Assembly: GCA_947373245.1 (NCBI GenBank)
Contig: CANBWY010000003.1
Coordinates: forward strand, 1,093-65,092
Source of the DNA: Comamonadaceae bacterium
Lineage (GTDB): Bacteria; Pseudomonadota; Gammaproteobacteria; Burkholderiales; Burkholderiaceae_C
DNA length: 64,000 nt
Direction of reading: 5' to 3'
Shown here: positions 30,088-49,323 of the stretch, one piece after another
Numbering within the stretch: position 1 is the first letter of the stretch
How the letters are laid out: each line of letters starts with the position of its first letter
The notes under the pieces: generated by a model
Database searches by the model: none
The model's input: only the letters and a program-made list of their open reading frames with translations
What the model was told of the DNA's origin: nothing
Translations under genes and position numbers: made by a program

Positions 30088-32619
30088 ATGAAAAAGTTTC
30101 GTCCGTCCCTCATTGCCTTTGCGTTTGTGTCTGCTGGTTTCATATCGCCCGCCCGCTCAGCTGAGCAAGATGGGGCGCAAGATATGCCCACCGTTGAAAT
30201 CATTGGTGCGACGCCTTTGGGGGGTGTCGGGGTTCCACGGTCGCAATTTCCAGCGAACGCACAAACACTCAGCGCAAAGGACGCGAACGAACAAGGCGTG
30301 ACGAATCTGGCTGATTTGTTGAACAACAACATGGGCCAAGTCAGCGTGAGTAACGGCACGGGCAACGCCTATCAAAACGACGTCAACTACCGAGGCTTTC
30401 AAGCGTCGTCCGTGCTGGGTGCGCCTGTGGGGTTGTCGGTTTACTTCGATGGTGTTCGCATGAACGAGCCCTTTGGCTCGGTGGTCAATTGGGACTTGAT
30501 TCCCATGAACGCCATGTCGCGCGTGAGTGTGTTGCCAGGCTCAAATCCGATGTTTGGCTTGAACACGCTGGGCGGCGCATTGGTCATCGATACCAAGAAT
30601 GGCAAAGACAACCCCGGTGCATCCATGGGCATCTTGGGCGGCTCTTTTAACCGCAAGCGCGTGAATTTTGAAAATGGTTGGGTGGATGCGGCGCACGACA
30701 CCGACTACTTCTTTGCCGTTAACTTCGACAAGCAAGACGGCTTTCGTGACCATTCAGGCTCAGACGTCAAACAGCTCTACGGCAAAACGCGTTGGCGTGG
30801 TAACGGTGGTAACACACGCTTAGAGCTGTCTGGTGCATTGGCTGACACAACCCTAAGCGGCACACAGTCGTTGCCCGCAGACATGATGAACAACCCCAGT
30901 TCAACCTACACATGGCCCGACAGCACCGCGAACCGCATGACGCTCATCAACGTGAAGGGCCAGCACGTGCTGGACGACAGCAACCAACTGGCCGGTAATT
31001 TATTTTTCCGAAAAGGGAATTCGCACAACATCAATAGCAACGTGATGTTGGATGACGGTTGTTTCAATTCTGATGGCTCTTTAGCCATGTCTGGTGTGAC
31101 ACCAAAATGTGCCAATAAAGCACCCAATGGCACGGCCACTAATTCTGTGACCCATGCAAATGCACTCGCCTATGGCTATGGTCGTTGGACGAGTTCAATT
31201 AACTCTAGCCTTGTAGATTCAACGACAAAGCAAGAAACTTTAGGGACTTCGTTGCAGTGGTCTAACGTTGATCCGTTGCTTGGCAGTAAAAACGCATTCA
31301 CCTTTGGCGGTTCGTTTGATCGCTCAAAAATTACGTACGAACAAAATACGTATTTGGCACAACTGGTTAATTATCAAACGGTGATTTCACCTAACCAGAA
31401 CTACGGGTTCACCGCAAATGGATTGGCGCCTTCTCTGACAAATATGCCGACATTCAGCGGCAGCAATGTGTTGGGCACAGTGAATTTAGATTCCACCACG
31501 ACGAATTTGAATGCCTATTTCACAGACACGATCGCGTTGACTGAAAAGCTGAGTACGACAGTTTCTGGCAGCTTTAACCACACCGCGGTTGATCAGAAAG
31601 GCGCTAACAAGCAGTACTTGAATGATGACGGGGGCTACAACTGGACAGATAGTTTTGCCGGCACCTCTTACTACAACCCTGCCTACATCGGCTCATACAA
31701 GTCGGCGAGCACTGGCTCTGGTGTGTCGGCTGTCACAGTACCCGCAGGTGGTATCGCTGGACCTCAGATCAACAGTCTGAATGGCGACCACAAATACCAG
31801 CGCTTCAATCCAGCCATTGGCTTCAATTACAACTTCGACAATGACAACGGCATCTTTGGTGGCTACAGCGAGTCCATGCGCGCGCCCACATCGATCGAAC
31901 TCTCTTGCGCCGATCCCAACAGTCCTTGCGCGCTGCCTACGGGTTTCAATGGCGACCCCGACCTGAAAGCCGTCGTCGCCAAAACCATCGAGTTTGGGGG
32001 GCGCGGCAAGCTAGGTCAGAACACGACTTGGAATGCCGCTGTGTTTGATTCGCGTTTGAGCAATGACATTCAATTCATTTCAACCTCTTCATCGATGGGG
32101 TATTTTTCCAACGTCGGCAACACCGAACGACGCGGCTTTGAATTAGGCGCGCAAACCAAGCTCGATAAGTTGTATTTGTCTGCCAACTACGGCTATGTAG
32201 ATGCCACCTATCAATCGAACTTCACCACGGCCGGCGGAGAAAACGTGGTCAGCGGCAACAAGATCCCAGGCATTGCAAAGCAAACGCTCAAGTTGCGCCC
32301 TGCCTATGCGGTGAATCAAGATCTCTTGCTGGGGGCGAATGTGATGGTGGTGGGGCGTCAATATGCCCACGGCAATGAGAGCAACACAGATCCAGATGGC
32401 AAAGTGGCTGGCTACAGCGTGGTCAATTTAGATGCGCACTACACCATCAACAAAGCGCTGAGGCTGTCGGGCAACATCAGCAATGTGTTCAACAAGTCAT
32501 ATGCCACCTACGGCTTGTCCGGCATGACAAGCATCTACACATTGGCCACCCAGCAATTCAACACACCCGCCGCGCCGCGTGGCGTTTGGGTTGGCTTGAC
32601 CTATAAATTGGGTGCTTGA
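30088..32619 (+). CDS. TonB-dependent outer-membrane receptor (candidate lanthanide/metallophore uptake)
   Basis: Signal peptide, TonB-box-like TVEII, plug NYRGFQAS..GLSVYFDGVRMNEPFG.VVNWDLIP, ELSCADP..PCALP, NVFNK.Y near the C-terminus; substrate is inference. Confidence 0.9.
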   Translation: MKKFRPSLIAFAFVSAGFISPARSAEQDGAQDMPTVEIIGATPLGGVGVPRSQFPANAQTLSAKDANEQGVTNLADLLNNNMGQVSVSNGTGNAYQNDVNYRGFQASSVLGAPVGLSVYFDGVRMNEPFGSVVNWDLIPMNAMSRVSVLPGSNPMFGLNTLGGALVIDTKNGKDNPGASMGILGGSFNRKRVNFENGWVDAAHDTDYFFAVNFDKQDGFRDHSGSDVKQLYGKTRWRGNGGNTRLELSGALADTTLSGTQSLPADMMNNPSSTYTWPDSTANRMTLINVKGQHVLDDSNQLAGNLFFRKGNSHNINSNVMLDDGCFNSDGSLAMSGVTPKCANKAPNGTATNSVTHANALAYGYGRWTSSINSSLVDSTTKQETLGTSLQWSNVDPLLGSKNAFTFGGSFDRSKITYEQNTYLAQLVNYQTVISPNQNYGFTANGLAPSLTNMPTFSGSNVLGTVNLDSTTTNLNAYFTDTIALTEKLSTTVSGSFNHTAVDQKGANKQYLNDDGGYNWTDSFAGTSYYNPAYIGSYKSASTGSGVSAVTVPAGGIAGPQINSLNGDHKYQRFNPAIGFNYNFDNDNGIFGGYSESMRAPTSIELSCADPNSPCALPTGFNGDPDLKAVVAKTIEFGGRGKLGQNTTWNAAVFDSRLSNDIQFISTSSSMGYFSNVGNTERRGFELGAQTKLDKLYLSANYGYVDATYQSNFTTAGGENVVSGNKIPGIAKQTLKLRPAYAVNQDLLLGANVMVVGRQYAHGNESNTDPDGKVAGYSVVNLDAHYTINKALRLSGNISNVFNKSYATYGLSGMTSIYTLATQQFNTPAAPRGVWVGLTYKLGA

Positions 32620-33245
32620 TCAATCAACTGGTGGCGTTGGGCCAAGTGAACCAAGGCCGCTGTGTTGTTCACGCCCAGTTTTTCTTTAATTTGGGTTTGG
32701 TTGTTGGCGACGGTTTTCAGGCTGATGTTCAAGCGCTCTGCGCAGTCATTCGTTGAACAGCCTTGCGCCAGTAAGCGCCAAATTTCCAGCTCGCGCAGAC
32801 TGAGTTGTGCGATGCGATCGGCTTCATCATCTGCTTCACGATGAAATGGGTTGATGCACAGATCGTCACTCAGGTACTGCTCGCCACGGTGCGCCGCCAT
32901 CACACCGGTGACCAAGTTTTCTGGGGGCGACGTTTTGGTCACAAAGCCCATCGCACCTCCCTCCAAGGCACTTCGGATCAGGCTGTGGCTGTTGTACATG
33001 CTGCACATCAGGACTTTGGCGGAGGCGTCGCGCTGTTTGATTTTTCGTAGCAACTCTAAGCCGCCCACATGGGGCATGGACACATCGGAGATGGTCACAT
33101 CGGGCAGGCATTGCGAGTAGGCGGTGTAGCCAGAGGTGGCGCATGCCGCTTCTGCGACCACCGAGATGCCGTTGTCCAGCGCAAGAAAGCGTGCATAGCC
33201 TGCGCGTACAACCGGGTGGTCGTCCACCAGCAAGACGCGAATCAT
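32601..33245 (-). CDS. NarL/LuxR-family response regulator
   Basis: LLVDDHPVVR, DVSMP, LSLRELEI..LAQG, ISLKTV HTH. Confidence 0.93.
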   Translation of the reverse strand: MIRVLLVDDHPVVRAGYARFLALDNGISVVAEAACATSGYTAYSQCLPDVTISDVSMPHVGGLELLRKIKQRDASAKVLMCSMYNSHSLIRSALEGGAMGFVTKTSPPENLVTGVMAAHRGEQYLSDDLCINPFHREADDEADRIAQLSLRELEIWRLLAQGCSTNDCAERLNISLKTVANNQTQIKEKLGVNNTAALVHLAQRHQLIDQAPNL

Positions 33246-34141
33246 GTGTGTGCCCCATGAAGTGGGATTTGCACATGGATGCGAAGCCCCGGTTGGGCAT
33301 CCTCAAAATGAATGCGGCCTTGCAAGCTGGCAATGCGTTCGCGCATGCCAACCAAACCCAGTCCGCGGTTGGGCTTTGCAGAGGGGGCGAGCCCCTGGCC
33401 GTTGTCTGTGATGGACAGCGTTAACACGTCGTTGACGATGTTGAGCCCAATCCATACCCGTGTGGCTTGCGCGTGTTTGGCAATGTTGGTCAATGCTTCT
33501 TGCGTCACGCGGTACAGGCTGGTGCAAAGGTGGTCGGGCAAGTGGTCGCGCAATTCGTCAATCAAGGTGTGGCACTCGATGCGGCCCTGCTGCTCCCAGC
33601 TGTCGCACAACTCGCGCAGGCTGGCTTCAAATCCAAGGCTATCCAAATTAGGCGGACGCAAACGCGTCAACATGTCACGCGCCAAGCTGTGCATGCGCAG
33701 AGACGACTGGTCGATGCGCTGCGCCGCCGCAAGGGCTGCATCGGGGGCGCTGTGTATGACTTTGGCCATGTAGGCAGCTTCAATGCGAAGCACAGTGCAG
33801 GCTTGACCCACTTCGTCGTGCAGTTCTTGCGACAAGAGGCGACGCTCGTCTTCTTGTGCCGTCAACAACCGTTGGGTCAGTTGGCGATTGGCGGTGAGCA
33901 AATTAGACACCTCGGCGATGCGTCTGAATGCAAACCAAGCCAAGCTGACGGACAACACCAACAGCGTTAACGGCATTTCATCGAGTTGAAATCGCTCATA
34001 GCTTTGCAGCGCGCGGGCTAAGTTTTCGGAAAATTCAAAGTGCATGGCCAAAAGCCAGAAAGAGCCGACGAGCCATGCAACACGACCCAAATCGCGCAAC
34101 GCGCGTGACGAGACATCAGAAGATGCGTCGGGCGCAGTCAT
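33242..34141 (-). CDS. HisKA_3 sensor histidine kinase with a minimal two-TM input
   Basis: QEDERRLLSQELHDEVGQ, RVTQEALTNIAKHA, DNGQG, GLGLVGMRER. Confidence 0.92.
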   Translation of the reverse strand: MTAPDASSDVSSRALRDLGRVAWLVGSFWLLAMHFEFSENLARALQSYERFQLDEMPLTLLVLSVSLAWFAFRRIAEVSNLLTANRQLTQRLLTAQEDERRLLSQELHDEVGQACTVLRIEAAYMAKVIHSAPDAALAAAQRIDQSSLRMHSLARDMLTRLRPPNLDSLGFEASLRELCDSWEQQGRIECHTLIDELRDHLPDHLCTSLYRVTQEALTNIAKHAQATRVWIGLNIVNDVLTLSITDNGQGLAPSAKPNRGLGLVGMRERIASLQGRIHFEDAQPGLRIHVQIPLHGAHT

Positions 34142-34707
34142 GGCCACATGCGTTTCAAGATGCCATCGCGGCGCAGCGCGTGCCAAAACGCGGCCATGAT
34201 GTGCGCGGCAATGGTGAACATGAACACATAGCTACAGGCAGTGTGAATGGCGCTGAGGGCGTCTTTCATGGCCGCAGAGGCTTCCCATAACCGAGGCAAG
34301 GCGGTGCCAAAAAACTTGATGGGATAGGGTGTGAAACTAGAGCCTAAAAATCCACTCAAAGGCATGATGACCATGCAGGCATACAGCAAGGCGTGGTTGG
34401 CGTTGGCGGTCCACGTTTGCCAACGCGGCAAGTGATCGGGCAAGGCGGGTGGGCGATGGCTCAAACGCCAAGCGCCACGCAGCACGATGAGCAGGCCCAA
34501 CACAAGGCCAATCGACTTGTGCCAATTGAACCACTCAGCGCGAATGCCCGGCGGAGATTTGGGAATGTCTTCCATCCAAACACCCAGGCCGAGTTGGTAG
34601 AGCAGGCCAATCGCCAAAAGCCCATGCAGCGCAATGGCGATCAGCGTGTAGCGTGACGACGACTTGGCTGACGCGCCATCGTCGGTGCTGAGGGGGGTGT
34701 CTTCCAT
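34138..34707 (-). CDS. Cytochrome b561 (YceJ-like di-heme)
   Basis: RY..IAIALH, WHKSIG, HALLY..MPLSG, IH...H..AAFWH..RRDG. Confidence 0.9.
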   Translation of the reverse strand: MEDTPLSTDDGASAKSSSRYTLIAIALHGLLAIGLLYQLGLGVWMEDIPKSPPGIRAEWFNWHKSIGLVLGLLIVLRGAWRLSHRPPALPDHLPRWQTWTANANHALLYACMVIMPLSGFLGSSFTPYPIKFFGTALPRLWEASAAMKDALSAIHTACSYVFMFTIAAHIMAAFWHALRRDGILKRMWP

Positions 34708-34733
34708 GAATGAGGTCCAGTTTGAATGGTCAA

Positions 34734-35681
34734 TTAATTGGCGGCAGTGCCCCACGGGAGCTTGCCCACAGGAATGGTTTTGAGCGCGGTGAAGGTGTTG
34801 GCATCAATCACGCTGACCGCATGGCTGCGGCCCGCTGCCACATAAAGTTTGGCGCCATCTGAGGTGATGGCCATGTTCCATGGGCGCAGTCCGACAGGCA
34901 CGTGTGTGCGCACTGAAAAGCTCTGCGTGTCGATGACAGCCACATTTGCATCGCCGCCGTTGCTGGCAAACAACCACTTGCCGTTGGGGTGCATGACTAG
35001 GCCGTTGGTGCGCGTGCCGACAGTCAAGGTGCTTTTGACGGCTAACGTTTGCATGTCGATGGCCACCAACAAGCTGTCGGTTTCCACGGCCACGTAAGCG
35101 GTATTGCCGTCGGGGCTGAAGGCAATACCGCGCGGGCGGTTGCCGACGCGAATGCTGGCAATTTGTTTGCGCGTGGACAGGTCAAGCACATCCACTTGAT
35201 CGGCCTCTTCCGCAGACACCAGCATCAACTTGCCGCTGGGGCTAAATACCGCATGCTCTGGGTTTTTGCCACGCACTGGAATTGAAAAATCCAACTTCCA
35301 GTGCGCTGTAGAAATAAAACTCACGCTGTTGCTGCCCTCGTTGGCCACGGCCACCCACTGGCCATCGGGCGAGCAATACACAGCTTCGGGTGACTCACCC
35401 AGTGTGAGGGTTTTATCCACCGTGAAGGTCTGCGTGTTGAGGGCTTGCAGCTGTGAGCCATTTTGGTTGCTCACATACAAATGCACATCGTGACGACACA
35501 AAGCCAAACCACGAGGTTTGCCACCCGTCGAGATGGTTTGAACCACCGTGTCTGTGGCGCTGTCGATCACGGAGACATCGGCACTGCCTTCATTGGTTGC
35601 AAACACCAGGCCCGCGGCAAACGCTGTTTGACCGATGGCCGCGAATAAACACAAAGTGGCAAGAAGTGAAAAGCGTTTCAT
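34734..35681 (-). CDS. Periplasmic YVTN-repeat beta-propeller (type associated with PQQ-dependent catabolism)
   Basis: Signal peptide; repeated VSVID / G..P.G / SPDG..YV blades. Confidence 0.85.
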   Translation of the reverse strand: MKRFSLLATLCLFAAIGQTAFAAGLVFATNEGSADVSVIDSATDTVVQTISTGGKPRGLALCRHDVHLYVSNQNGSQLQALNTQTFTVDKTLTLGESPEAVYCSPDGQWVAVANEGSNSVSFISTAHWKLDFSIPVRGKNPEHAVFSPSGKLMLVSAEEADQVDVLDLSTRKQIASIRVGNRPRGIAFSPDGNTAYVAVETDSLLVAIDMQTLAVKSTLTVGTRTNGLVMHPNGKWLFASNGGDANVAVIDTQSFSVRTHVPVGLRPWNMAITSDGAKLYVAAGRSHAVSVIDANTFTALKTIPVGKLPWGTAAN

Positions 35682-35693
35682 CGTTGTTCCAAA

Positions 35694-37862
35694 TTAAAGT
35701 GGAATTTGGCTTTGTAGGCCAAGTACCCATGAGCGAGGCAAGCCAGGTTCGAAGTATTGCTGAGACGATTGATTGATGATGATCGAGCTGACCGTGTTTT
35801 TGTTGGTGAGGTTGTCTACACCCACAAATGCTTCCACGCGGGCAGGGCCAACTTGGTAGCGTTGGCGAACACGCGCATTGAGTTGCGCATAGCCTGGCGC
35901 ACTGGAATAGCTGTTGACAGTTGAGGTGAGGGTGTCGTTGGCCCATATGTTGGATCGACTGATGAAGTCAAGCCCGGCCTCTAAACCCAAAGCAGGTTTT
36001 TGACCCGATTGCGAGAAGCCTTTTTCAGACCATTGCAGCGTCGTGAAGAGTTGGCGCTTTGGAATTCCGGGCAAGTTGAGGCCAGGGGTTGGGCTAAAGC
36101 TGGCATTGCCCTCTGCATACGTTGCATGCATGAATGTGGCTGATGCGTGTGTGCGCCAGTGGCTGCTGTACTGATTGCGCAAAGCAAATTCAAAGCCATC
36201 GCGTTTGGTTTGAGATGCGTTGGCGTAGGCCGTTTTCCCACCGCTTGAGTAAGCCGAGACGATTTCATTTTCGGTGTCGATTTGAAACCACGCGGCATCA
36301 ACACGAGCGCTTGGCGTCGCTAGCCATTTGCTCCCAATCTCTAAGTGTCTGCTGCGTGAGGCTAGAAGATTAGGATTGAATTGTTCATTGATGGTCTTAG
36401 ATCCGTTGATCGGATTGGTGGTGAATGAATAGGCAGCTTCTGACAACGTGGGTGTTTCAAAGCCCTTACCGTGGTTGACATAGATGTTCAAGTTCTCTTG
36501 TGCGTGCCAAGTTAAACCTATCACAGGACTGGTCGCTTTGTAGTTGACCGAGCCAGAGCCATCGACAGGATTTGACGTCAAATAGTCGGTGCTTTTCAAC
36601 GTCACGTTACTTTGACGCGCGCCTGTAGTCAGTGTGTAACGTTCACCAAGAGACCAATTCGCTTGCGCAAACAAGTCGCGATTGCGTGCTTCGTTCAGTT
36701 CGTTGCGCGCGCTGGTCGCAGGGGTGGTGGTTTGCTCCCCGTTACTGGCATTTCCACCTTGTCGCAGTTCTGCTGAATGGTCAAGATCCACGCCGACGAC
36801 CCAGTTCATGGGGTGATCGCCGAAGACTTGATTTTTGCCACTGGCTTGTAAACCCAAACCTTCAAATTGCCGATCCAAGCCAACCCATTTATTCGTTGAT
36901 TGAAATTGCAAATTGGTGCGGTTGCCACCGTACAGGCGACCTTGCAATTTCAAATCACTGTCGACGCGGTGTTCCACAACAACACCTGTCTGTTCTTGCT
37001 TCACAGTTTTACGCGTTCTCGTCGCAAGTGCGCCTGAGCCTGCGGCCGATGGATCTTTCGCAAGTTCTTGTGCTGTTAAGCCCAACGCATCTTTGGCATA
37101 AGGCATGTCAAACACGTTGATGATGAATTTAAAACGCGTATCTGGTTTTGCATCGACAGTGAGGACACTGTTCAGTTGTTGCCGGCGTGTGTCGCTGTTG
37201 GCGCGATAGCCTTCGATGGCGAAGGTGCTGTAGTCTGCTACCAGCCCGACATTGCCACTGCGCTGGCTAAATTGCCAATCGGTACGCGTCATACCAAAAG
37301 ACCCTGCGTACATCGCTACCTGCGCCTCGGGTGTGTCGCCTGCCTCGCGCGTGAAGGTTTGAATCACGCCGCCAGACGCATTGCCATACAGCAAAGCCAA
37401 GGGGCCAGTGAGCACTTCCATGCGATCCGTCGAGGTCATGCTGACCGTGGACGTTTGGCCTTGGCCGTCAGGCGTGGTGGCAGGAATGCCATCGGTGATG
37501 AGACGAATGCCGCGCATGCCAAACGCCGAGCGTGCGCCAAAACCCCGAATTGAAATTTGTACGTCTTGTGCGTAGTTGTTTCGGTTCAATGCCACCACAC
37601 CAGGTGCTTGCGCCAAGACATCCGATAGGTTGACCTGTGGCCCTGAGTTGCGAATGGTTTGCGCATCAATCGTGTAAACCGAAGCCGGCGCGTCAAATTG
37701 TTTTTGAGCCAAGCGACCACTTTGCACCACGACTTCATTCAAGTCGGCGGTGGCACTTTGGGCATGCACCCCGAGGCTAGGGAAAACACCGAGGCACAAG
37801 CACATGCCCACCGAAAACGCGGGGTGCTGTTTGAATTTTTGATGGGTTTTGGCGGATTTCAT
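35694..37862 (-). CDS. pqqU: TonB-dependent receptor, YncD/PqqU-like (PQQ importer)
   Basis: Plug NRNNYAQDVQISIRGFGARSAFGMRGIRLITDGIPATTPDGQGQ...LYGNASGGVI closely resembles E. coli YncD/PqqU as recalled; lies in a PQQ-ADH cluster. Confidence 0.8.
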   Translation of the reverse strand: MKSAKTHQKFKQHPAFSVGMCLCLGVFPSLGVHAQSATADLNEVVVQSGRLAQKQFDAPASVYTIDAQTIRNSGPQVNLSDVLAQAPGVVALNRNNYAQDVQISIRGFGARSAFGMRGIRLITDGIPATTPDGQGQTSTVSMTSTDRMEVLTGPLALLYGNASGGVIQTFTREAGDTPEAQVAMYAGSFGMTRTDWQFSQRSGNVGLVADYSTFAIEGYRANSDTRRQQLNSVLTVDAKPDTRFKFIINVFDMPYAKDALGLTAQELAKDPSAAGSGALATRTRKTVKQEQTGVVVEHRVDSDLKLQGRLYGGNRTNLQFQSTNKWVGLDRQFEGLGLQASGKNQVFGDHPMNWVVGVDLDHSAELRQGGNASNGEQTTTPATSARNELNEARNRDLFAQANWSLGERYTLTTGARQSNVTLKSTDYLTSNPVDGSGSVNYKATSPVIGLTWHAQENLNIYVNHGKGFETPTLSEAAYSFTTNPINGSKTINEQFNPNLLASRSRHLEIGSKWLATPSARVDAAWFQIDTENEIVSAYSSGGKTAYANASQTKRDGFEFALRNQYSSHWRTHASATFMHATYAEGNASFSPTPGLNLPGIPKRQLFTTLQWSEKGFSQSGQKPALGLEAGLDFISRSNIWANDTLTSTVNSYSSAPGYAQLNARVRQRYQVGPARVEAFVGVDNLTNKNTVSSIIINQSSQQYFEPGLPRSWVLGLQSQIPL

Positions 37863-37904
37863 GATTTGCAAAGCCCTCAAGTGGTCATGGGTCACAACAC
37901 GAAA

Positions 37905-37920
37905 AGCAAAACTCATTCCA
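37905..37920 (-). promoter_or_regulatory. sigma54 (-24/-12) promoter for the pqqU operon
   Basis: Minus strand TGGAATGAGTTTTGCT, exact GG-N10-GC spacing. Confidence 0.6.
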
Positions 37921-37942
37921 TCGATGGGGTGTGCCAAAACGA

Positions 37943-37958
37943 TGGCATTTTTCGTGCT
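37943..37958 (+). promoter_or_regulatory. sigma54 promoter for the nosR-like/apbE operon
   Basis: TGGCATTTTTCGTGCT, GG-N10-GC. Confidence 0.6.
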
Positions 37959-41251: not shown

Positions 41252-41268
41252 TTGGCATGCGTTTTGCA
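41252..41268 (+). promoter_or_regulatory. sigma54 promoter of the PQQ alcohol dehydrogenase gene
   Basis: TTGGCATGCGTTTTGCA, near-consensus TGGCAC-N5-TTGC. Confidence 0.8.
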
Positions 41269-41381
41269 AATCGGTCTCTAGCGGTCAGCGGTCTTCAATG
41301 TGGCCGCTTAATTCCGTAAGACATAAATTGATGGCATGTGCACGTTGATTTATGAACGAAAACAAATCAAGGAGATATCCA

Positions 41382-43121
41382 GTGAAAAGAAAACTTCTCA
41401 GCCTGCTCATCCTGGCTGCTACGGCACATGTATCCGCAGAAGTCAGTGATGCCATGATCGCCAAAGATGCGTCAGACACGGATTCAGTTCTGAGCTGGGG
41501 CTTGGGCACACAAGGTCAGCGCTTCTCGCCTTTGACCACCATCAACACCAAAAACGTGAACAGGCTCGCGCCGGCTTGGTCGATGTCTTTTGGCGGTGAA
41601 AAGCAACGCGGCCAAGAGTCTCAGCCCTTGGTCTACAAAGGCAAGATGTTCGTGACCGCTTCTTATTCGCGCATCTTCGCGATTGATGTGAAAACGGGCG
41701 AGAAGGTTTGGAAATATGAGCACCGCCTGCCAGAAGGCATCATGCCTTGCTGTGACGTGGTCAACCGTGGCGCTGCGCTGTACGGCAACCTCGTGATCTT
41801 TGGTACGTTGGATGCGCAGTTGGTGGCCTTGGACCAAGACACCGGCAAAGTGGTTTGGCGCGAAAAGATTGACGACTATTCTGCGGGCTACAGCTACACA
41901 GCGGCGCCTTTGATTGCGGACGGTCTGTTGTTGACTGGCGTGTCGGGGGGCGAGTTTGGTGTGGTGGGTCGCGTTGAGGCGCGCGACCCCAAGACCGGCA
42001 AATTGGTTTGGACACGTCCCACTGTTGAAGGCCACATGGGCTACAAAGACGGCAAAGAAAACGGCATCAGTGGCACCACCAACGCCACTTGGCCAGGCGA
42101 GACATGGAAGACGGGTGGTGCTTCCACTTGGTTGGGTGGCTCATATGACGCCACCACAGGTTTGGCTTACTTTGGTACGGGTAACCCCGGCCCATGGAAC
42201 AGCCACGTGCGCAAAGGCGACAACTTGTATTCATCGTCCACCGTGGCGATTGATGTCAAGACTGGCAAGATTGCATGGAGCTACCAAAACACGCCCAACG
42301 ATTCATGGGACTTTGACGGCGTCAACGAGTTCGTGACTTTTGACATGGACGGTAAGCGCGTGGGTGGCAAGGCGGACCGCAATGGCTTCTTCTATGTGAA
42401 CGATGCCAAGACTGGCAAGCTCATCAACGCCTTCCCCTTCGTGAAGAAAGTCACATGGGCTTCGAGCATTGACCTCAAGACGGGGCGCCCTGTGTTTGAC
42501 CCAGCCAACCGCCCAGGTGACCCAACCGCCAGCAGCGATGGCAAGAAGGGTTCATCGGTGTTTGCGGCGCCCGGCTTCTTGGGTGGCAAGAACCAAATGC
42601 CAATGGCCTACAGCCCCAAGTCGCAACTGTTCTATGTGCCCACCAACGAATGGGGCATGGACATTTGGAACGAGCCCATCAGCTACAAAAAAGGCGCTGC
42701 CTATTTAGGCGCAGGCTTCACGATGCGGCCTTTGTTTGATGATCACATTGGCTCCTTGCGCGCCATCGATCCCAAAACTGGCAAAGTGGCTTGGGAAGTG
42801 AAAAACAATGCGCCTTTGTGGGGTGGTGTTTTGACGACCGCAGGTGACTTGGTGTTCTGGGGCACGCCAGAGGGTTACCTCAAGGCCGCCGATGCCAAAA
42901 CAGGCAAAGTGTTGTGGCAGTTCCAAACTGGCTCTGGCGTGGTGGCGCCTCCCATCACATGGAGCGATGGCACAGACCAATACGTGAGCGTTGTGTCAGG
43001 TTGGGGCGGTGCGGTTCCGCTGTGGGGCGGCGAAGTGGCCAAGAAGGTCAACTTCCTCGAACAAGGCGGTTCTGTTTGGACGTTCAAACTGCCATCGTCG
43101 ACGAACGTCGCTGCCAAGTAA
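41382..43121 (+). CDS. pedH: PQQ-dependent alcohol dehydrogenase, lanthanide-type (PedH/ExaF clade)
   Basis: [12 protein letters not shown], vicinal-disulfide PCCDVVNRG, active-site WDFDGVNE (extra Asp), [10 protein letters not shown]; GTG start after AAGGAG. Confidence 0.9.
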
Positions 43122-43192: not shown

Positions 43193-43209
43193 AAATCAAG
43201 GTGAACTTT

Positions 43210-43551
43210 ATGAAAAAAATCAAACACGTTTGCATGCTAGTTTTGGCGTTGAGTCCTGCTGCATGGGCGGCGCCTACATTGAGCGCCACAGAGTCGACGG
43301 CGGCGTTGGACCTCGCTAAAAATAACGGTTGCTTGAGCTGTCACGCCATGGATGAAAAAATCGTGGGGCCTGCTTATTCCAAAGTGGCCGCCAAATACAG
43401 CGATGACAAAGATGCGGCCGCCTCATTGGCGCAATCAATTCGCAACGGCTCGCAAGGCAAGTGGGGCCGTATCCCAATGCCAGCGCACGGCAATATGAGC
43501 AACGAAGACATTCAATTGCTGGCACGTTGGGTGTTGACGATTCAAAAGTGA
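43210..43551 (+). CDS. Periplasmic cytochrome c551/c552
   Basis: Signal peptide; CLSCH, VGPAY, G.WG.IPMP. Confidence 0.9.
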   Translation: MKKIKHVCMLVLALSPAAWAAPTLSATESTAALDLAKNNGCLSCHAMDEKIVGPAYSKVAAKYSDDKDAAASLAQSIRNGSQGKWGRIPMPAHGNMSNEDIQLLARWVLTIQK

Positions 43552-43569: not shown

Positions 43570-43650
43570 CGTGCTTCGTTTTGTGACGTGTGCGTGTGGC
43601 GCAGCGAAACGAATGCACAGAAGACGCACACGCAAAAAGATGGCGTTAAC

Positions 43651-43667
43651 TTGGTACAGGACTTGCT
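43651..43667 (+). promoter_or_regulatory. sigma54 promoter of the aldehyde dehydrogenase
   Basis: TTGGTACAGGACTTGCT, GG-N10-GC. Confidence 0.75.
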
Positions 43668-43720
43668 GTATCCCAGACACCCGATAGGGAATTCTTGATG
43701 ATTCAAAAAATGGAGATGAC

Positions 43721-45241
43721 ATGATTTACGCAACCCCCGGCGCCGCTGGCGCAAAAGTTCAATACAAAGCTCACTACGACAACTTCATTGGCGGCAAGTT
43801 CGTCGCCCCCGTGAAGGGCCAGTACTTTGATGTGATCACACCTATCACTGGCAAGGCCTACACCAAAGCCGCGCGCTCAGGGGCTGAAGACATTGAGTTG
43901 GCATTGGATGCGGCGCACAAAGCCGCTGACGCTTGGGGCAAAACATCGCCCGCCGAGCGTGCCAATATTTTGTTGAAAATCGCAGATCGCATCGAAGCCA
44001 ATTTGGAAATGTTGGCGTACGCCGAAACCGTGGACAACGGCAAAGCCATTCGTGAAACGTTGAATGCAGACATCCCACTCACGGTAGACCATTTCCGCTA
44101 CTTTGCAGGTTGCTTGCGCTCACAAGAAGGCGCGTTGTCTGACATCGACGAAAACACCGTGGCCTACCATTACCACGAGCCCTTGGGTGTGGTTGGTCAG
44201 ATCATTCCTTGGAACTTCCCCATTTTGATGGCTGCTTGGAAATTGGCCCCCGCCATCGGCGCGGGTAACTGTGTGGTGCTCAAACCCGCTGAGTCCACCC
44301 CGATCTCCATCTTGGTGATGGCTGAGCTGATTGCCGACTTGCTGCCACCTGGCGTGTTGAACATTGTGAACGGCTATGGTCGCGAAGCCGGCATGCCATT
44401 GGCCACCAGCACACGCATTGCCAAGATCGCATTCACAGGCTCGACCACCACGGGCCGCGTCATTGCGCAAGCGGCTGCCAACAACTTGATTCCTGCGACG
44501 CTCGAATTGGGTGGTAAGTCGCCCAACATTTTCTTTGCTGACGTGATGGACAAAGACGATGGTTTCCTTGACAAAGCCATCGAAGGCCTGGTGCTGTTCG
44601 CGTTCAACCAAGGTGAGGTGTGTACCTGCCCATCGCGCGCTTTGATCCAAGAAAGCATTTACGACAAGTTCATGGAACGTGTCTTGAAGCGCGTGGCCGC
44701 CATCAAGCACATGAACCCACTCGACACAGACAGCATGATGGGTGCACAAGCCTCTAAAGAGCAGTTGACCAAAATCTTGTCTTACCTCGACTTGGGCAAA
44801 CAAGAAGGTGCCGAAGTGCTGGCCGGTGGCGCACAAGCCCATTTGGAGGGTGACTTGGCGGGTGGCTACTACGTGCAGCCGACCTTGTTCAAGGGCCACA
44901 ACAAAATGCGCATTTTCCAAGAAGAAATTTTTGGCCCCGTGTTGGCTGTGACCACCTTCAAGGACGAGGCCGAGGCTTTGGCCATCGCCAACGACACCCT
45001 GTACGGTTTAGGCGCGGGTGTGTGGAGCCGCAATGGCAACGTGGCCTACCGCATGGGCCGCGCCATCAAAGCGGGCCGTGTGTGGACCAACTGTTACCAC
45101 GCCTACCCCGCACATGCTGCGTTTGGTGGCTACAAAGAGTCAGGCATTGGCCGTGAAACACACAAGGTCATGCTCGACCACTACCAACAAACCAAGAACT
45201 TGTTGGTCAGCTACAGCGAGAGCAAGCTGGGCTTCTTCTAA
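43721..45241 (+). CDS. aldB: NAD-dependent aldehyde dehydrogenase (AldB/ExaC/AcoD type)
   Basis: [41 protein letters not shown]-terminal LGFF. Confidence 0.93.
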
Positions 45242-45265
45242 GTTCATGATCAGCAGATAAAGAAT

Positions 45266-45296
45266 GCGCGTGGTGAGCAATCACCACGCGCTTTTT
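45266..45296 (+). terminator. Intrinsic terminator after the aldehyde dehydrogenase
   Basis: GCGCGTGGTGA-GCAA-TCACCACGCGC-TTTTT. Confidence 0.85.
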
Positions 45297-45311
45297 ACAT
45301 AGGAGTAAAGA

Positions 45312-45701
45312 ATGGTTGAAAAAGTTGTGGCAACGCCAGCAGCCCTAGAGCTGGTCGATTTTTTGAAGAAAAAGCATGGGACTTTGATGTTTCATCAGTC
45401 CGGCGGGTGCTGTGACAACAGTGCCGCAAATTGCTATCTGCCAGGCGAAATCACCATGGGTGCTGGGGATGTTTTTTTAGGTGAAATCGGTGGCTGCGAG
45501 TTTTTCATTGGTCGCAATCAATATGAATATTGGAAGCACACGCAGCTGATCATTGATGTGATTGAAGGGCACGGCGGCACGTTTTCATTGGAGGGACCGG
45601 AGGGCAAAGCCTTCCACACGCGTTCACGCGTGTTCACACAAGCCGAAATAGATGAGTTGGCGGCAGAAGAAGCGGCCGCGCAAAACACCCACAAGCGTTG
45701 A
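45312..45701 (+). CDS. DUF779 family protein
   Basis: MFHQSGGCCD, QYEYWKHTQLIIDV, FSLEGPEG; commonly follows aldB-type genes. Confidence 0.9.
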   Translation: MVEKVVATPAALELVDFLKKKHGTLMFHQSGGCCDNSAANCYLPGEITMGAGDVFLGEIGGCEFFIGRNQYEYWKHTQLIIDVIEGHGGTFSLEGPEGKAFHTRSRVFTQAEIDELAAEEAAAQNTHKR

Positions 45702-45705
45702 TCGC

Positions 45706-47691
45706 TTAGCTCCAAACGGCGTCTGGCAACAGGTGCTTTTTTCTGTAAATGGTGTTTCGTGAGACACCTAAAAGTTTGGCTGCCGCAGACACATTGCCGT
45801 TGGCGGTGCGCAGTGCTTGCGCGATGGCCTCAATGGCCACATTCTCTAGGTTGTATGCCGCTGGGGTGCGTAGTTCCATCGGGGACAGGAGCGGCTCTGC
45901 CGTGCTGGGCACAGGAGGGGGCGCTTGCTCGATGGTTTGCCTAAGTGGAGCCGCTTGAATGTCATATAAAAATTCATCTGACAAATGGCTGAGTTGGATC
46001 TCGCCAGCAGACTCAGCCATGACCACCGCGGTTCGCAACAGGTTGAAGAGTTGTCTAAAGTTGCCCGGCCATGCATAGCGGTGAAACACGTCCATGACTT
46101 CTTGAGAAATGCTGATTCTTTTTTCGCCAGGGCAGACGCTGGCCAGAATTTTCTTGGCAACCACGTCCAAATCTTTGCGCTCACGCAAGGCGGGAAGTTT
46201 GACCACCAAGCCATTGAGGCGGTAATACAAGTCTTCTCTAAAGCTGCCGTTGGCGATCATGTCTTTGAGGTTTTTGTTGGTGGCGCAGATGATCGCCACA
46301 TCCACCTCCACCTCGCGCCCTGAGCCCAGTGGATTGACTTTGCGCTCTTGTAAAACGCGCAGTAAGCGTGCTTGCAAGTGCAAGGGCATATCGCCAATTT
46401 CATCTAAGAAAAGCGTGCCTTCGTTGGCAAATAAAATTTTTCCTGTGGATCCTTTGCGCTTTGCGCCTGTAAATGCACCCTCTTCGTAGCCGAACAATTC
46501 TGACTCGATCAAGTTTTCAGGAATGGAGGCGCAGTTGACGGAAACAAAATTTTTTGCACTGCGCGTGGAATCGTTGTGAATGGCTTGTGCGAGCAGGTCC
46601 TTGCCTGTGCCGGTTTCTCCCAAAATCATAATGGGGATGTCGCGGCCTTGGATGATTCGCAGCTTGTGGATCACCGAAGAAACTTGTGGATCGCCAGTGT
46701 CTAGGTATTTCAGACTGGAGAGGGGCAGTTTGTCTTCTTTTTTCTTTTTGTAAGCCGTGCTGGGGGCGTTGAAGGTGCTGGGTTGTCCATGCAAATGCGC
46801 GCTGGGCTTGGCGAATTTCAATTCGCTTTTGCAGCACACGCTCACCCCATCGTGCAAACACAAGCGGAAGTAGTTGCCATCCGCAGCGCGGGCGTGGTCA
46901 AAAAATTGCGAAATCCCTACGCCAAACAAGGACGAGAAGGTATGTGCCCGCAACGCGTTGATGGACATCCCAAATTGAAACTGCGCACTTCGGTTGGCTG
47001 ATAAAAAGCGCCCGTCGGTGGTGAACACCGCAATCCCTTCAACGATGGTGCCAATGAACTCGGGCCTGGCGTGGAAGTGAATGCGAACCTCGGTGGGAAA
47101 CACATCCGCGAACATGTGGTTCTCAATCATCTGTGCCGACATGCGCGCCAAGGCCATCGTGTGTTGGTGGTAGCTGCGGTAATCACCTGTCACATCCAGT
47201 GCGCCAATGACATCGCCGTGCGGGTCCAAGATGGGCGTGCAAGAGCAGGTGAGAAATTGGTTGGCTTGCAAAAAGTGTTGGTTGCCATGCACCACGATAG
47301 GTTGACCTTCTGCCAAGGCCGTTCCAATGGCGTTGGTGCCCTTGCTTTTTTCCGACCAGTCAACGCCTGGCGCCAATGCAATTTGCGATGCTTTTTCTAG
47401 AAAGTCGGTGTCGCCCAAAGAATGCAGGATCGTGCCGGTGCGTGTCGTCAACAGCACCATGCTGTGGGTATTGGCAATTTGCTCATACAGCGTCTCCATC
47501 ACCGGCGCCGCATGCTGGTATAAAAAATGGTTTTCTTCTAAAAGCGCACTCACCGTCTGGTGCGACGCGCCGCTGTAGTCCGGGGCTTGACGCACCGCAA
47601 GGCCAAATTCACGTGACCGCTCTTGCGATGAGCGAATGATGGCGGATTGTTCAGGGCTGTTGTAGGCGGCCCCTTGCGAGTAGGTATTCAT
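45706..47691 (-). CDS. sigma54-dependent activator, AcoR-type (GAF-AAA+-Fis HTH)
   Basis: GAF region WSE..KGTNAIG, GETGTGK, ESELFGYEEGAFTGA, WPGNFRQL, GNVSAAAKLLGVSRNTIYRK; GGAG RBS before ATG 47691. Confidence 0.93.
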   Translation of the reverse strand: MNTYSQGAAYNSPEQSAIIRSSQERSREFGLAVRQAPDYSGASHQTVSALLEENHFLYQHAAPVMETLYEQIANTHSMVLLTTRTGTILHSLGDTDFLEKASQIALAPGVDWSEKSKGTNAIGTALAEGQPIVVHGNQHFLQANQFLTCSCTPILDPHGDVIGALDVTGDYRSYHQHTMALARMSAQMIENHMFADVFPTEVRIHFHARPEFIGTIVEGIAVFTTDGRFLSANRSAQFQFGMSINALRAHTFSSLFGVGISQFFDHARAADGNYFRLCLHDGVSVCCKSELKFAKPSAHLHGQPSTFNAPSTAYKKKKEDKLPLSSLKYLDTGDPQVSSVIHKLRIIQGRDIPIMILGETGTGKDLLAQAIHNDSTRSAKNFVSVNCASIPENLIESELFGYEEGAFTGAKRKGSTGKILFANEGTLFLDEIGDMPLHLQARLLRVLQERKVNPLGSGREVEVDVAIICATNKNLKDMIANGSFREDLYYRLNGLVVKLPALRERKDLDVVAKKILASVCPGEKRISISQEVMDVFHRYAWPGNFRQLFNLLRTAVVMAESAGEIQLSHLSDEFLYDIQAAPLRQTIEQAPPPVPSTAEPLLSPMELRTPAAYNLENVAIEAIAQALRTANGNVSAAAKLLGVSRNTIYRKKHLLPDAVWS

Positions 47692-47838
47692 CACTCCACG
47701 CGCGGATGTTTGATTTGAATTGATCATAAAAAATCCGTGAAGTTTTAGTCGTCTAGTTGCAATGCCAATTGAGAAATATTTTCGATGCTCGCAAGTCAAG
47801 AAGGGGATAGTTGTTTCCCTAGGGGCTGCGAAATAACG

Positions 47839-47855
47839 TGTTCCAAATTGGAACA
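47839..47855. promoter_or_regulatory. Perfect palindrome TGTTCCAA-A-TTGGAACA (TGT-N11-ACA) between the activator and pedF
   Basis: Seen directly; same spacing as the sites at 41120 and 43553. Confidence 0.6.
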
Positions 47856-47873
47856 ATTAACCGCTCAATTCAG

Positions 47874-47889
47874 TGGCTTGGTATTTGCT
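47874..47889 (+). promoter_or_regulatory. sigma54 promoter of pedF
   Basis: TGGCTTGGTATTTGCT, GG-N10-GC. Confidence 0.65.
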
Positions 47890-47930
47890 TGATGACTCAG
47901 GTCAATTACTCCATCCTGAACACAGAGGTT

Positions 47931-48431
47931 ATGCACGTCATGTCATTCGTTGCCACACAAACCGTCCGTCGATTACTCGGCGCATCTTTCGCCTTGGTCT
48001 TGGCTTGCAGCAGCCTACAGAGTTACGCGCACGGGGATGTTGTGCCGCACTCTGTGGACACATCCACCTTGCCTCAGCTAGGCGAAAAATGGCTGGATGC
48101 CAATCCCTACTCGACGGGTCCAGCCAACAAAGAGGCGTTGCGAATTGGCGCATCTGCGTACAACCAAAATTGTGCACGTTGCCATGGACTGGAGGCTATC
48201 TCTGGCGGCATCTCTCCCGATCTACGAAAAATAGACAACGATTGCACTGAGTTGGCCGATGAGGCTAAAAAGAATGCGTGCTACCAAGAGATCAACGAAT
48301 ACTTCGTAGCCACCGTGCGTCGTGGCCGCGCACGTGATGGCCGGGTTTACATGCCGCCGTTTGAGGGCATTCTTTCGCAAGAGGCGATTTGGTCCATCAA
48401 GACTTACCTTGAAACACGCCGTGAGCGTTAA
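47931..48431 (+). CDS. pedF: Cytochrome c550 (PedF/ExaB-type acceptor for PQQ-ADH)
   Basis: AHGDVVP..VDT..LP.LG, GASAYNQNCARCHG, PDLR, VYMPPF. Confidence 0.9.
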   Translation: MHVMSFVATQTVRRLLGASFALVLACSSLQSYAHGDVVPHSVDTSTLPQLGEKWLDANPYSTGPANKEALRIGASAYNQNCARCHGLEAISGGISPDLRKIDNDCTELADEAKKNACYQEINEYFVATVRRGRARDGRVYMPPFEGILSQEAIWSIKTYLETRRER

Positions 48432-48441
48432 GGAGTTGGCT

Positions 48442-49323
48442 TTGAAATCGTCTACCAAAAGCGTTAGTTCGGGTCTTTCACGTCGTAAAGTTCTGGCGCT
48501 TGCGCCCACTTTGTGGGGCCTACAAGGTCTGTCGCATGCGCAAGAACTGAGCGCGATGGAAAAGATCAAAGCCAGAGGCACCTTGAAGGTGGCGGTCTAC
48601 AAAGACAACGCGCCTTATTCCGATGGTCCAAATTCTGATATTCAAGGCTTGGATGTCTCGTTGGCCAAAGCCTTGGCTGCAAAACTCAACCTTCAGCTCG
48701 CCTTGCTGCCTTTTGATGCGGGCGAGAACATGAACGATGACCTGCGCAACATGGTTTGGAAGGGGCATTACTTGGGTTACGGGCCAGCCGACATGATGAT
48801 CCATGTGCCCGTGGATCGGTACTTGATGAATGAAAACAAACAAGTCATGATTTTTGGCGCCTATGTGCGTGAGCACTTGGTGGTGCTGCACAGCCCATCA
48901 AAAATCGCGACGGTCGAAGCCCCTGATGCGTTGGTGGGCAAAACAATTGCGGTGGAAAAAGGCAGTGGTGCCGCAAGCGCTTTGATGGGTTATCGCGGCG
49001 GCATGGTCCGCGAAAAAGTATCCATTTACAAGGATGGTGTGGATGCCGCGAAGGCGGTGCTTTCTGGACAAGTCGATGCCGCCTATCTCAGCCGCGCGCA
49101 AGCCGAGGCTGCCATTCACGCCAGCCACACCAAGGGCGATTGGATGCTGTCAACCATGCCCTTGCCCGGTGTCATGCCTGCGGGTTGGCCTTTGGGCATG
49201 GCGGTGAAGTCGGACAACAAAGAGCTGGTCACTGCACTGGACGAGGCCTTGGCATCCATGCGCCAAAGTGGCGAGTTGCTGGCGATGTTTCAATCGCATG
49301 GATTGACCTTGGCGGCGCCTTGA
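48442..49323 (+). CDS. Quinoprotein dehydrogenase-associated periplasmic binding protein (MxaJ/XoxJ/PedG-like)
   Basis: TTG start after AAGGAG; SRRKVL twin-arginine-like signal; SBP family 3 features (LKVAVY.DNAPYS, GLDV.LA, DDLRNMVWKGHYLG). Confidence 0.82.
   Translation: MKSSTKSVSSGLSRRKVLALAPTLWGLQGLSHAQELSAMEKIKARGTLKVAVYKDNAPYSDGPNSDIQGLDVSLAKALAAKLNLQLALLPFDAGENMNDDLRNMVWKGHYLGYGPADMMIHVPVDRYLMNENKQVMIFGAYVREHLVVLHSPSKIATVEAPDALVGKTIAVEKGSGAASALMGYRGGMVREKVSIYKDGVDAAKAVLSGQVDAAYLSRAQAEAAIHASHTKGDWMLSTMPLPGVMPAGWPLGMAVKSDNKELVTALDEALASMRQSGELLAMFQSHGLTLAAP

What the first reader, a model, noticed from the sequence alone, without database searches (positions are those of the whole stretch)
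30088..49323. Cofactor-scavenging, lanthanide-type alcohol-oxidation system with a flavinylated redox arm
Seen: one ~19-kb block holds a PQQ-ADH with the lanthanide-type D-x-D motif, two different TonB receptors, a YVTN beta-propeller, cytochrome b561, a two-component pair, a NosR-like FMN/4Fe-4S protein with ApbE, two c-type cytochromes, a XoxJ-like protein, aldehyde dehydrogenase, DUF779 and an AcoR-type sigma54 activator. The window has no pqqA-E, no Ca-type ADH paralogue and no pedA1A2BC-type ABC transporter. Known: each family is described separately (Pseudomonas ped/exa, Methylorubrum ExaF, PqqU, NosR/NosX). Inference: the module imports both cofactors (PQQ through one receptor, Ln3+ or an Ln chelate through the other) and uses a flavinylated membrane ferredoxin as a maintenance or electron-routing arm. 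I know of no functional characterisation of this full combination.
Basis: partly seen in the sequence, partly recalled or inferred. Interest (0 to 1): 0.85.

Follow-up and report, generated by a model that had tools for sequence, protein, structure and literature searches.

The report
Cofactor-scavenging lanthanide alcohol-oxidation island
A gene island conserved in freshwater bacteria encodes an alcohol dehydrogenase with a rare-earth-type metal motif, no genes for making its PQQ cofactor were found, and it likely imports both PQQ and the metal through two outer-membrane receptors, while a linked flavin/iron-sulfur membrane protein probably services the enzyme; the parts and that pairing are already published, but the helper's job is untested.

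Summary
All 15 genes are present. The ADH is PedH-type (WDFDG). The core is syntenic in 7 of 139 genomes of the genus (likely Limnohabitans), none of which has pqqC, including a closed one. One receptor meets the published PqqU signature; the other is the reciprocal best hit of a LutH and tracks PQQ-ADHs across the genus (39 of 44). Four sigma54-type promoter sites and a palindrome found only here tie the block to AcoR. The flavinylated arm is less new than claimed: NapH/NosR-like + ApbE beside exaA was described in silico in 2021 (172 genomes), and PQQ scavenging is known to be widespread. What I add: the arm sits beside D-x-D enzymes in 49 of 50 readable loci; it forms one clade whose FMN motif has Lys/Arg in place of Gly (76 of 77); and it coexists with cytochrome c (25 of 29 long loci), against the published idea that it replaces the cytochrome. 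It is accessory: 10 of 79 PedH genomes. My best guess is reductive maintenance of the holoenzyme; direction of electron flow and flavinylation are untested. New variant of a known kind.

The parts
30088..32619 (+). LutH-family TonB-dependent receptor (predicted lanthanide or Ln-chelate import)
   Evidence: Pfam; reciprocal best hit with the receptor next to lanmodulin in lut-type cluster L202, 30% identity, E 1.6e-86, only hit in G000 at E<1e-3
32601..33245 (-). LuxR/NarL-type response regulator
   Evidence: present in 6 of 6 relatives
33242..34186 (-). HisKA_3 sensor kinase with a short acidic loop (E..SE...E.[FW]Q[LV]DE) between predicted membrane helices
   Evidence: loop conserved in the window and 7 of 11 aligned homologues, the other 4 are a different HAMP-like type
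34138..34755 (-). cytochrome b561
   Evidence: PF01292; also beside LutH-like receptors in other loci
34734..35681 (-). YVTN beta-propeller, PQQ-catabolism-associated type
   Evidence: TIGR03866 220 bits, below cut-off 287
35694..37937 (-). PqqU-type PQQ receptor (ORF from first TTG; real start probably downstream)
   Evidence: top PDB hit 9C4O, E 2e-95; F139/K310/R340/R392 = E. coli Y99/K274/R304/R365
37943..37958 (+). sigma54 -24/-12 site before the nosR-like/apbE pair
   Evidence: such a site lies upstream of 27 of 75 homologues, 1.4 expected by shuffle
37967..40126 (+). NosR/NapH-like membrane protein: RnfG-like FMN domain with variant motif DGVSKAT (38477-38497), two CX3CP motifs, two 4Fe-4S-type Cys motifs
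   Evidence: AlphaFold model pLDDT 78, best fold match RnfG 7zc6_G, E 2.9e-4
40123..41103 (+). ApbE flavin transferase with twin-arginine-like leader; start overlaps the nosR-like stop (ATGA)
   Evidence: PF02424
41120..41136 (.). palindrome TGTTCC-N5-[GT][GT]AACA, candidate AcoR enhancer
   Evidence: only 2 matches in the 2.29-Mb genome, both in this island
41253..41268 (+). sigma54 site before pedH
41352..43121 (+). PedH/ExaF-type PQQ alcohol dehydrogenase with Cys133-Cys134, GGEFG and WDFDG
43201..43551 (+). c551-like monoheme cytochrome
43652..43667 (+). sigma54-like site before exaC
43721..45241 (+). acetaldehyde dehydrogenase ExaC/PedI
   Evidence: NF050026 over cut-off
45312..45701 (+). 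DUF779
45706..47856 (-). AcoR-type GAF/PAS sigma54 activator (ORF; real start probably downstream)
   Evidence: the name AcoR rests on domain layout and recall
47839..47855 (.). second copy of the palindrome, before pedF
47874..47889 (+). sigma54-like site before pedF
47931..48431 (+). cytochrome c550 PedF (ORF opens at 47838)
   Evidence: TIGR04494 over cut-off
48427..49323 (+). periplasmic binding protein in PedG/ExaJ position, twin-arginine-like leader (ORF opens at 48322)
   Evidence: SBP_bac_3
49339..50118 (-). unannotated 259-aa ORF that flanks the island
   Evidence: no Pfam or NCBIfam hit; found beside the island in 3 of 6 relatives

Best explanation
The block is a conserved island, likely under sigma54/AcoR control, whose PedH-type enzyme is predicted to oxidise ethanol and other alcohols in the periplasm using a lanthanide and PQQ, both likely scavenged through the PqqU-type and LutH-family receptors, while the NosR-like/ApbE pair probably supplies reducing power to keep the enzyme or its cofactor working. 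Main path (inferred from Pseudomonas ped/exa): alcohol to PedH(PQQ, Ln3+), then PedF, c551 and a terminal oxidase; the aldehyde goes to cytoplasmic ExaC. No inner-membrane lanthanide ABC transporter is present, and none would be needed if the metal is used only in the periplasm and there is no Ca paralogue to switch to. The arm (inferred): ApbE would attach FMN to invariant Thr177, and electrons would pass from quinol or a cytoplasmic donor through the 4Fe-4S centres to the periplasmic FMN, as proposed for NosR and NosZ, to activate or protect holo-PedH or imported PQQ. Shown: gene content, motifs, synteny, absences, co-occurrence. Not shown: transport, metal dependence, flavinylation, partner, direction of electron flow. 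My odds: island identity 0.9, PQQ import 0.85, Ln import by the LutH-like receptor 0.65, maintenance role of the arm 0.45.
For: PedH-type: best PDB hit 6ZCV 804 bits against 1FLG 671, which reads WDFSG. No pqqC in 7 of 7 carriers against 27 of 139 genus genomes; no pqqB or pqqD in G000, G035 (closed), G008, G039, with control G007 positive. PqqU residues conserved in 40 of 40 homologues beside the arm. Among 50 genus genomes with a PQQ-ADH: pqqC only 16, PqqU only 22, both 7, neither 5. A LutH-like receptor is in 39 of those 50 and in 5 of the other 89. Sigma54 sites lie before four transcription units, with enrichment in homologues (27 of 75, 12 of 49, 20 of 41; 1.4, 0.7, 1.6 expected). The arm is not a nos or nir part: no nosZ in 4 of 4 carriers tested (control positive) and only YVTN-level PF02239 scores. 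It does not replace cytochrome c: PedF or c551 within 10 kb in 25 of 29 loci of 20 kb or more, PedF 24, PedH 18. D-x-D in 49 of 50 readable neighbouring ADHs; arm in 0 of 11 genomes with only the more distant, PedE-like enzyme. The arm is commoner where pqqC is missing: 6 of 10 against 15 of 69 (Fisher p 0.019, kin not corrected).
Against: Nothing here shows the direction of electron flow or a partner. The motif lacks the Gly of the published consensus, and Gly-to-Ala already halves flavinylation in a model protein (PMC12052999), so FMN attachment is uncertain. 69 of 79 PedH genomes in the family sample lack the arm, so PedH does not need it in general (only the first 2-3 candidates per genome were scored, so arm counts are lower bounds). 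15 of 50 arm-bearing genomes have pqqC, so the arm is not specific to scavengers. LutH identity is only 30%, and most Methylobacterium homologues were not next to lanmodulin: 3 genomes among the 30 loci scanned showed it within 1.5 kb. G000 is 84% complete. The 49-of-50 count comes from close relatives picked by similarity to the query.
Confidence: 0.5

Rival explanations
1. Same island, but the arm is a second electron exit: reduced PQQ passes electrons to the FMN domain and on to the quinone pool, which would raise the energy yield per alcohol. The Lys/Arg beside the flavin would raise its potential to make this possible.
For: This is the published model for NapH-like + exaA clusters (PMC8238504). 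The basic residue is clade-specific (76 of 77; one branch, SH-aLRT 97). The nosR-like/apbE pair has its own sigma54 site and lies directly before pedH in all 7 carriers.
Against: The published version treats flavin and cytochrome as alternatives, yet they co-occur in 25 of 29 long loci. From recall, covalent FMN in RnfG/NqrC lies well below the PQQ potential, so the first step would be uphill. The arm is within 10 kb of PedF more often than of PedH (24 against 18 of 29).
Confidence: 0.3
2. The protein is not, or only weakly, flavinylated and acts as a membrane scaffold or redox sensor that is needed for expression or assembly of the PQQ system.
For: The motif departs from D-x-x-[S/T]-G-A-[S/T]; the FMN_bind hit is below the Pfam cut-off (20.9 against 22). 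A sister clade has lost the Asp as well (HGVxAGT). That NosR and NirI were first described as regulators is recalled.
Against: Thr177 and Ala176 are invariant, the fold matches RnfG/NqrC, and apbE is in 71 of 80 loci, start overlapping the nosR-like stop here, although the genome has a second ApbE-motif gene on C2.
Confidence: 0.12
3. The arm, cytochrome b561 and LutH-like receptor form a metal-acquisition unit: periplasmic reduction frees or sorts the lanthanide from chelates, for example by removing competing Fe(III) or reducing Ce(IV).
For: The NosR-like gene, LutH-like receptor and b561 lie together in L053, L068 and L085; b561 and YVTN sit beside the LutH-like receptor in two genus loci without pedH. 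The link to D-x-D enzymes fits a metal role.
Against: A LutH-like gene is in only 11 of 29 long arm loci and b561 in 6. Most lanthanides are not redox active (general knowledge).
Confidence: 0.08

Closest known systems
Flavinylated 'NapH-like' systems associated with ExaA alcohol oxidase (Meheust et al. 2021, PMC8238504; passages read)
   Same: NapH/NosR-like Fe-S membrane protein with N-terminal FMN domain, plus ApbE, in a cluster with a PQQ ethanol dehydrogenase; 172 genomes reported; uncharacterised.
   Different: The word lanthanide does not occur in the main text. The paper uses an [S/T]GA[S/T]-like motif and presents the arm as an alternative to cytochrome c; here it has K/R, neighbours D-x-D enzymes and coexists with PedF.
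Pseudomonas putida KT2440 ped cluster (review PMC12997753; passages read)
   Same: PedH, PedF, PedG-position binding protein, PedI/ExaC.
   Different: No PedE, PedA1A2BC or pqq operon here. KT2440 lacks a LutH homologue, and NosR and ApbE do not occur in that review's text.
PqqU of E. coli (Munder et al. 2025, PMC12124388; outline and results parts 2-3 read)
   Same: Diagnostic Y99(F)/R304/R365 and K274 conserved; host lacks pqq genes, as do most PqqU holders in that survey (biosynthesis found in 23%).
   Different: Far below the NCBIfam equivalog cut-off (431 against 1200 bits); serves a predicted lanthanide ADH instead of Gcd; K274 is kept, so not the proposed metal co-transport variant.
LutH and lut cluster of Methylorubrum extorquens (PMC7391723; passages read)
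   Same: Reciprocal best hit with the receptor between the lut ABC genes and lanmodulin in L202.
   Different: 30% identity; no lanM or lutA hit in G000; flanked by a two-component pair instead.
NosR/ApbE(NosX) of denitrifiers (PMC12052999; passages read)
   Same: Same architecture; best NCBIfam model NosR.
   Different: About 30-35% identity, separate clade, DAISGAT in the 8 NosR-type rows aligned; no nosZ.

Membership tests
PedH/ExaF lanthanide PQQ-ADH | extra Asp (D-x-D) metal ligand | tested here: met
   WDFDG aligned with 6ZCV; 1FLG has WDFSG. That 6ZCV is PedH and 1FLG is ExaA is recalled; the tool names both quinoprotein ethanol dehydrogenase
PedH/ExaF lanthanide PQQ-ADH | vicinal Cys-Cys and GGEFG Glu ligand | tested here: met
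   Cys133-Cys134, GGEFG at 199
PedH/ExaF lanthanide PQQ-ADH | activity depends on Ln3+ | not testable with these tools
   needs assay
PqqU | aromatic at 99, Arg304, Arg365 (published signature) | tested here: met
   F139, R340, R392; 40 of 40 homologues
PqqU | NCBIfam equivalog NF041535 cut-off | tested here: not met
   431 against 1200 bits
PqqU | PQQ binding and import | not testable with these tools
   needs assay
LutH-type Ln receptor | reciprocal best hit with a LutH in a lut cluster | tested here: met
   L202 is called a lut cluster from its gene order against PMC7391723
LutH-type Ln receptor | linked lut ABC transporter and lanmodulin | tested here: not met
   no lanM or lutA hit in G000; TIGR03863 negative
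LutH-type Ln receptor | Ln transport | not testable with these tools
   profile only: 39 of 44 holders have a PQQ-ADH
NosR (N2O reductase helper) | linked nosZ | tested here: not met
   0 of 4 carriers, control positive
NosR (N2O reductase helper) | D-x-x-[S/T]-G-A-[S/T] motif and equivalog cut-off | tested here: not met
   DGVSKAT; 605 against 1000 bits
NapH-like ExaA-associated flavinylation system (Meheust 2021) | PF12801 membrane protein with FMN domain in a cluster with ApbE and ExaA-type ADH | tested here: met
NapH-like ExaA-associated flavinylation system (Meheust 2021) | covalent FMN on the motif Thr | not testable with these tools
   Thr invariant, Gly replaced
Pseudomonas ped cluster | PedE paralogue, PedA1A2BC and host pqq operon | tested here: not met
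Pseudomonas ped cluster | PedH + PedF + PedI core | tested here: met
XoxJ/MoxJ | TIGR03871 cut-off | tested here: not met
   30 against 212 bits

The most novel reading that the evidence does not exclude
The Lys/Arg-motif NosR-like clade is a dedicated servicing device for lanthanide quinoproteins: a retuned covalent flavin fed from the membrane keeps scavenged PQQ or holo-PedH reduced and active, in parallel with the cytochrome path. Freshwater Limnohabitans are split into PQQ producers and double scavengers that depend on neighbours for PQQ and on the water for rare earths.
Probability: 0.3. Interest if true: 0.75.

Novelty: new variant of a known kind. Interest (0 to 1): 0.45.

Why it matters
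It gives a compact, co-regulated test case for two open questions: what NosR-family flavoproteins do outside denitrification, and how non-methylotrophs obtain lanthanides and PQQ without making either a cofactor or an ABC importer. Named strains of Duganella, Massilia and Noviherbaspirillum carry the arm, so the test needs only deletions and a 2x2 PQQ/La3+ growth assay. A Lys/Arg motif that is still flavinylated would widen the ApbE recognition rule. The producer/scavenger split within one freshwater genus suggests PQQ cross-feeding in lakes.

Tried and rejected
Complex prediction of PedH with the periplasmic part of the NosR-like protein was not available, so binding is open. The protein atlas gave no result for the 259-aa ORF. 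No solved structure matched the NosR-like alignment or the LutH-like receptor by sequence. First LutH test: the best homologue in the genome of L099 lies beside ntrYX/hfq-like and malonate genes by my reading of the translations, not in a lut cluster, so I widened to 26 genomes. RNA: 7 freshwater metatranscriptome runs held small shares (0.06-0.17); I laid 4 of 7. Contigs cover parts of most genes, and near-identical pieces start at 41288-41289 in 3 of 4 runs, about 10 nt after the start predicted from the sigma54 site. A neighbouring stretch is covered as well, no DNA run or silent stretch was laid and contigs cannot show starts or levels, so I count this as inconclusive. Idea that the substrate Lys complements the ApbE Lys-to-Gln change (NG[ILV]AQG): rejected, because ApbE of the sister clade without Lys has the same Gln. 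Idea that the arm is specific to PQQ scavengers: rejected as strict rule (15 of 50). Rows dropped: 3 of 53 ADH rows without readable motif (2 cut by locus ends, one 32% paralogue); 3 of 80 truncated NosR-like rows; G367 (short partial match) left out of the arm set and G291 (partial, no PedH found) kept in it. The pqqC search of arm loci used 50 of 80 loci, chosen mostly for a neighbouring PedH. The tree is the quick version; the careful search did not finish. The supplements held for PMC8238504 and PMC12124388 were only short texts without the data tables, so these clusters may already be listed there.


Full report
Observation. The block is slightly lower in G+C than the 8-30 kb part of the window (0.52-0.57 against 0.56-0.62). 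The genome is a 2.29-Mb, 84%-complete assembly. The closest loci with a genus name are titled Limnohabitans sp., so I take that as the likely genus.

The enzyme. The ADH scores best against 6ZCV (804 bits) and shares its WDFDG; 1FLG (671 bits) has WDFSG (their names PedH and ExaA are recalled). The vicinal Cys pair and GGEFG are intact. PedF and ExaC pass their curated cut-offs. The genome has one more PQQ dehydrogenase on C4, with WDLDS, beside a c-type cytochrome and a pentapeptide-repeat gene. G035 (closed) and G008 have only the PedH-type enzyme. No Ca-type motif was found in G000.

Conservation and origin. Orthologues at 84% identity or more occur in 7 of 139 genus genomes, G000 included. 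All 6 relatives keep the 13-gene core; exaC and DUF779 were not in the fetched regions of 2 of them. The island lies between rpe and gph-trpE. In G001 that site is empty, in two loci (L222, L230) it holds only pqqU, and in two more genomes pqqU follows rpe directly. So the island either grew around a resident pqqU or shrank to it. The LutH-like gene exists as two alleles at the same place: 77-80% identical in 2 relatives and 31-35% in 4; the full-length divergent alleles are 34-36% identical to LutH, against 30% for the window's copy.

PQQ. pqqC is in 27 of 139 genus genomes and in 0 of the 7 carriers. pqqB and pqqD are absent from 4 of 4 carriers tested, with a positive control. pqq proteins from two genus loci find only a 26-28% radical SAM protein in G000. 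The second receptor matches 9C4O and carries the signature used by Munder et al. (PMC12124388, results read): F139, R340, R392, plus K310; 40 of 40 homologues from arm loci agree. It fails the strict NCBIfam cut-off. Among 50 genus genomes with a PQQ-ADH, 16 have pqqC only, 22 PqqU only, 7 both, 5 neither (kin not independent, many incomplete). PqqU is also in 38 genomes without such an ADH, beside a glucose/sorbosone dehydrogenase gene in 3 of the 6 loci checked. Scavenging itself is known to be widespread.

Lanthanide. The first receptor's only homologue at E<1e-15 in three Methylobacterium-genus genomes lies next to lanmodulin; locus L202 has the lut gene order (PMC7391723 passages), and its receptor finds only this gene in G000. 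In the genus the family is in 39 of 50 ADH genomes and 5 of 89 others. Against: low identity, and most homologues in that sample were not beside lanmodulin. No PedA-type ABC binding protein is in 4 of 4 carriers.

Regulation. Sigma54-type -24/-12 sites precede nosR-like (37943), pedH (41253), exaC (43652) and pedF (47874); the loose pattern also matches at four places inside genes on the minus strand. Upstream regions of homologues are strongly enriched (mononucleotide shuffles). A palindrome occurs twice in the genome, before pedH and pedF. AcoR control is inferred from these.

The arm. A scan of GTDB genomes gave 80 loci: ApbE in 71, a PedH-like hit in 52, PedF in 44. Of 50 readable neighbouring ADHs 49 have D-x-D and 1 has WDFSG. 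In an even sample of 400 family genomes, 79 have a PedH-type enzyme, 11 have the arm, 10 have both, and none of 11 genomes with only the 54-58% (PedE-like) enzyme has it. So the arm implies PedH, but PedH rarely has the arm. The FMN motif is DG[VI][STA][KR]AT in 76 of 77 homologues; NosR-type proteins of the same family read DAISGAT and a sister clade HGVxAGT; each group is one branch in a quick tree (97, 100, 100). Two of the sister-clade loci read sit beside another WDYDG dehydrogenase, one beside a sorbosone-type gene. The model (pLDDT 78) matches RnfG and NqrC. The published motif is D-x-x-[S/T]-G-A-[S/T] (PMC12052999 passages). There is no nosZ or nirS-strength hit in carriers. Cytochrome c is within 10 kb in 25 of 29 long loci. 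The arm is commoner in PedH genomes without pqqC (6 of 10 against 15 of 69), but 15 of 50 arm genomes make PQQ.

Mechanism. I commit to alcohol oxidation by a holoenzyme assembled from imported PQQ and lanthanide, with electrons leaving through PedF, and to a reductive servicing role for the arm. The grounds are the NosR analogy, the coexistence with cytochrome c, and recalled chemistry: covalent FMN potentials lie below PQQ, and oxidised quinoproteins and free PQQ are labile. None of this last step is shown. The second-exit model of Meheust et al. stays close behind.

What is known. Meheust et al. (PMC8238504, passages) report NapH-like clusters with an ethanol oxidase in 172 genomes. Searches for a functional study or for the full combination found none: flavinylation+ApbE+NosR+PQQ 0 papers; PqqU+lanthanide+alcohol dehydrogenase 2 papers; NosR-like/ethanol dehydrogenase/ApbE 1 unrelated paper; Limnohabitans+lanthanide 1 unrelated by its listing; some searches gave background only. 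In passages of PMC11996626, PMC11334425, PMC12997753 and bioRxiv 10.64898/2026.07.10.737718 the arm is not discussed; the preprint describes Ln-type TonB receptors in other genomes. The library lacks most subscription papers, and the large supplementary tables were not held. Earlier unchecked notes of this scan report the same arm, motif variant and Ln link in other genomes.

Verdict. Real, coherent and well conserved; a new variant of known kinds. The surprising parts are the motif change, the Ln-type bias and the coexistence with cytochrome c. Interest 0.45.

Noticed in passing
G000 contig C4, L003:1399-4247: Second PQQ dehydrogenase (563 aa, WDLDS, 36% to PedH) with a diheme c-type cytochrome, pentapeptide-repeat and ankyrin genes, beside pheST-ihfA; substrate unknown. 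It would share the imported cofactors.
   Followed up: partly
L013:1077-3716 and L021:8716-11458: Four-gene cassette with no Pfam hit (one protein looks MotA/TolQ-like by eye) inside the island of two relatives and in 15-20 other fetched loci, mostly PQQ/NosR-like ones; no hit in G000.
   Followed up: partly
L153-L162, L203-L207: Sister clade of NosR-like proteins with HGVxAGT motif and ApbE, beside other WDYDG PQQ dehydrogenases or a sorbosone-type dehydrogenase gene.
   Followed up: partly
genus-wide: pqqC and PqqU are largely complementary among PQQ-ADH holders, which suggests producers and scavengers in one genus.
   Followed up: partly
window 29609-58868: The rpe-gph interval is a variable insertion site; here it also holds HPPD, a MarR regulator and, by my reading of the translations, a homoprotocatechuate-type catabolic cluster (50121-58871).
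   Followed up: partly
window 30088-32619: The LutH-like gene is exchanged between two divergent alleles at one site among close relatives.
   Followed up: partly
window 33242-34186: The kinase has a conserved acidic loop, a candidate metal-sensing site, and stays next to the LutH-like gene in several loci.
   Followed up: partly
G000 contig C2, about 71261-75422: Second ApbE-motif gene (DLGGIAKGY type) about 3 kb from a b561 paralogue; possibly another flavinylation system.
   Followed up: no
L014:8620-9882: Porin-like gene between apbE and pedH in one relative, with homologues in about 30 fetched loci; absent from G000.
   Followed up: no
window 49339-50118: Unannotated 259-aa ORF with an N-terminal hydrophobic stretch, beside the island in 3 relatives.
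   Followed up: partly
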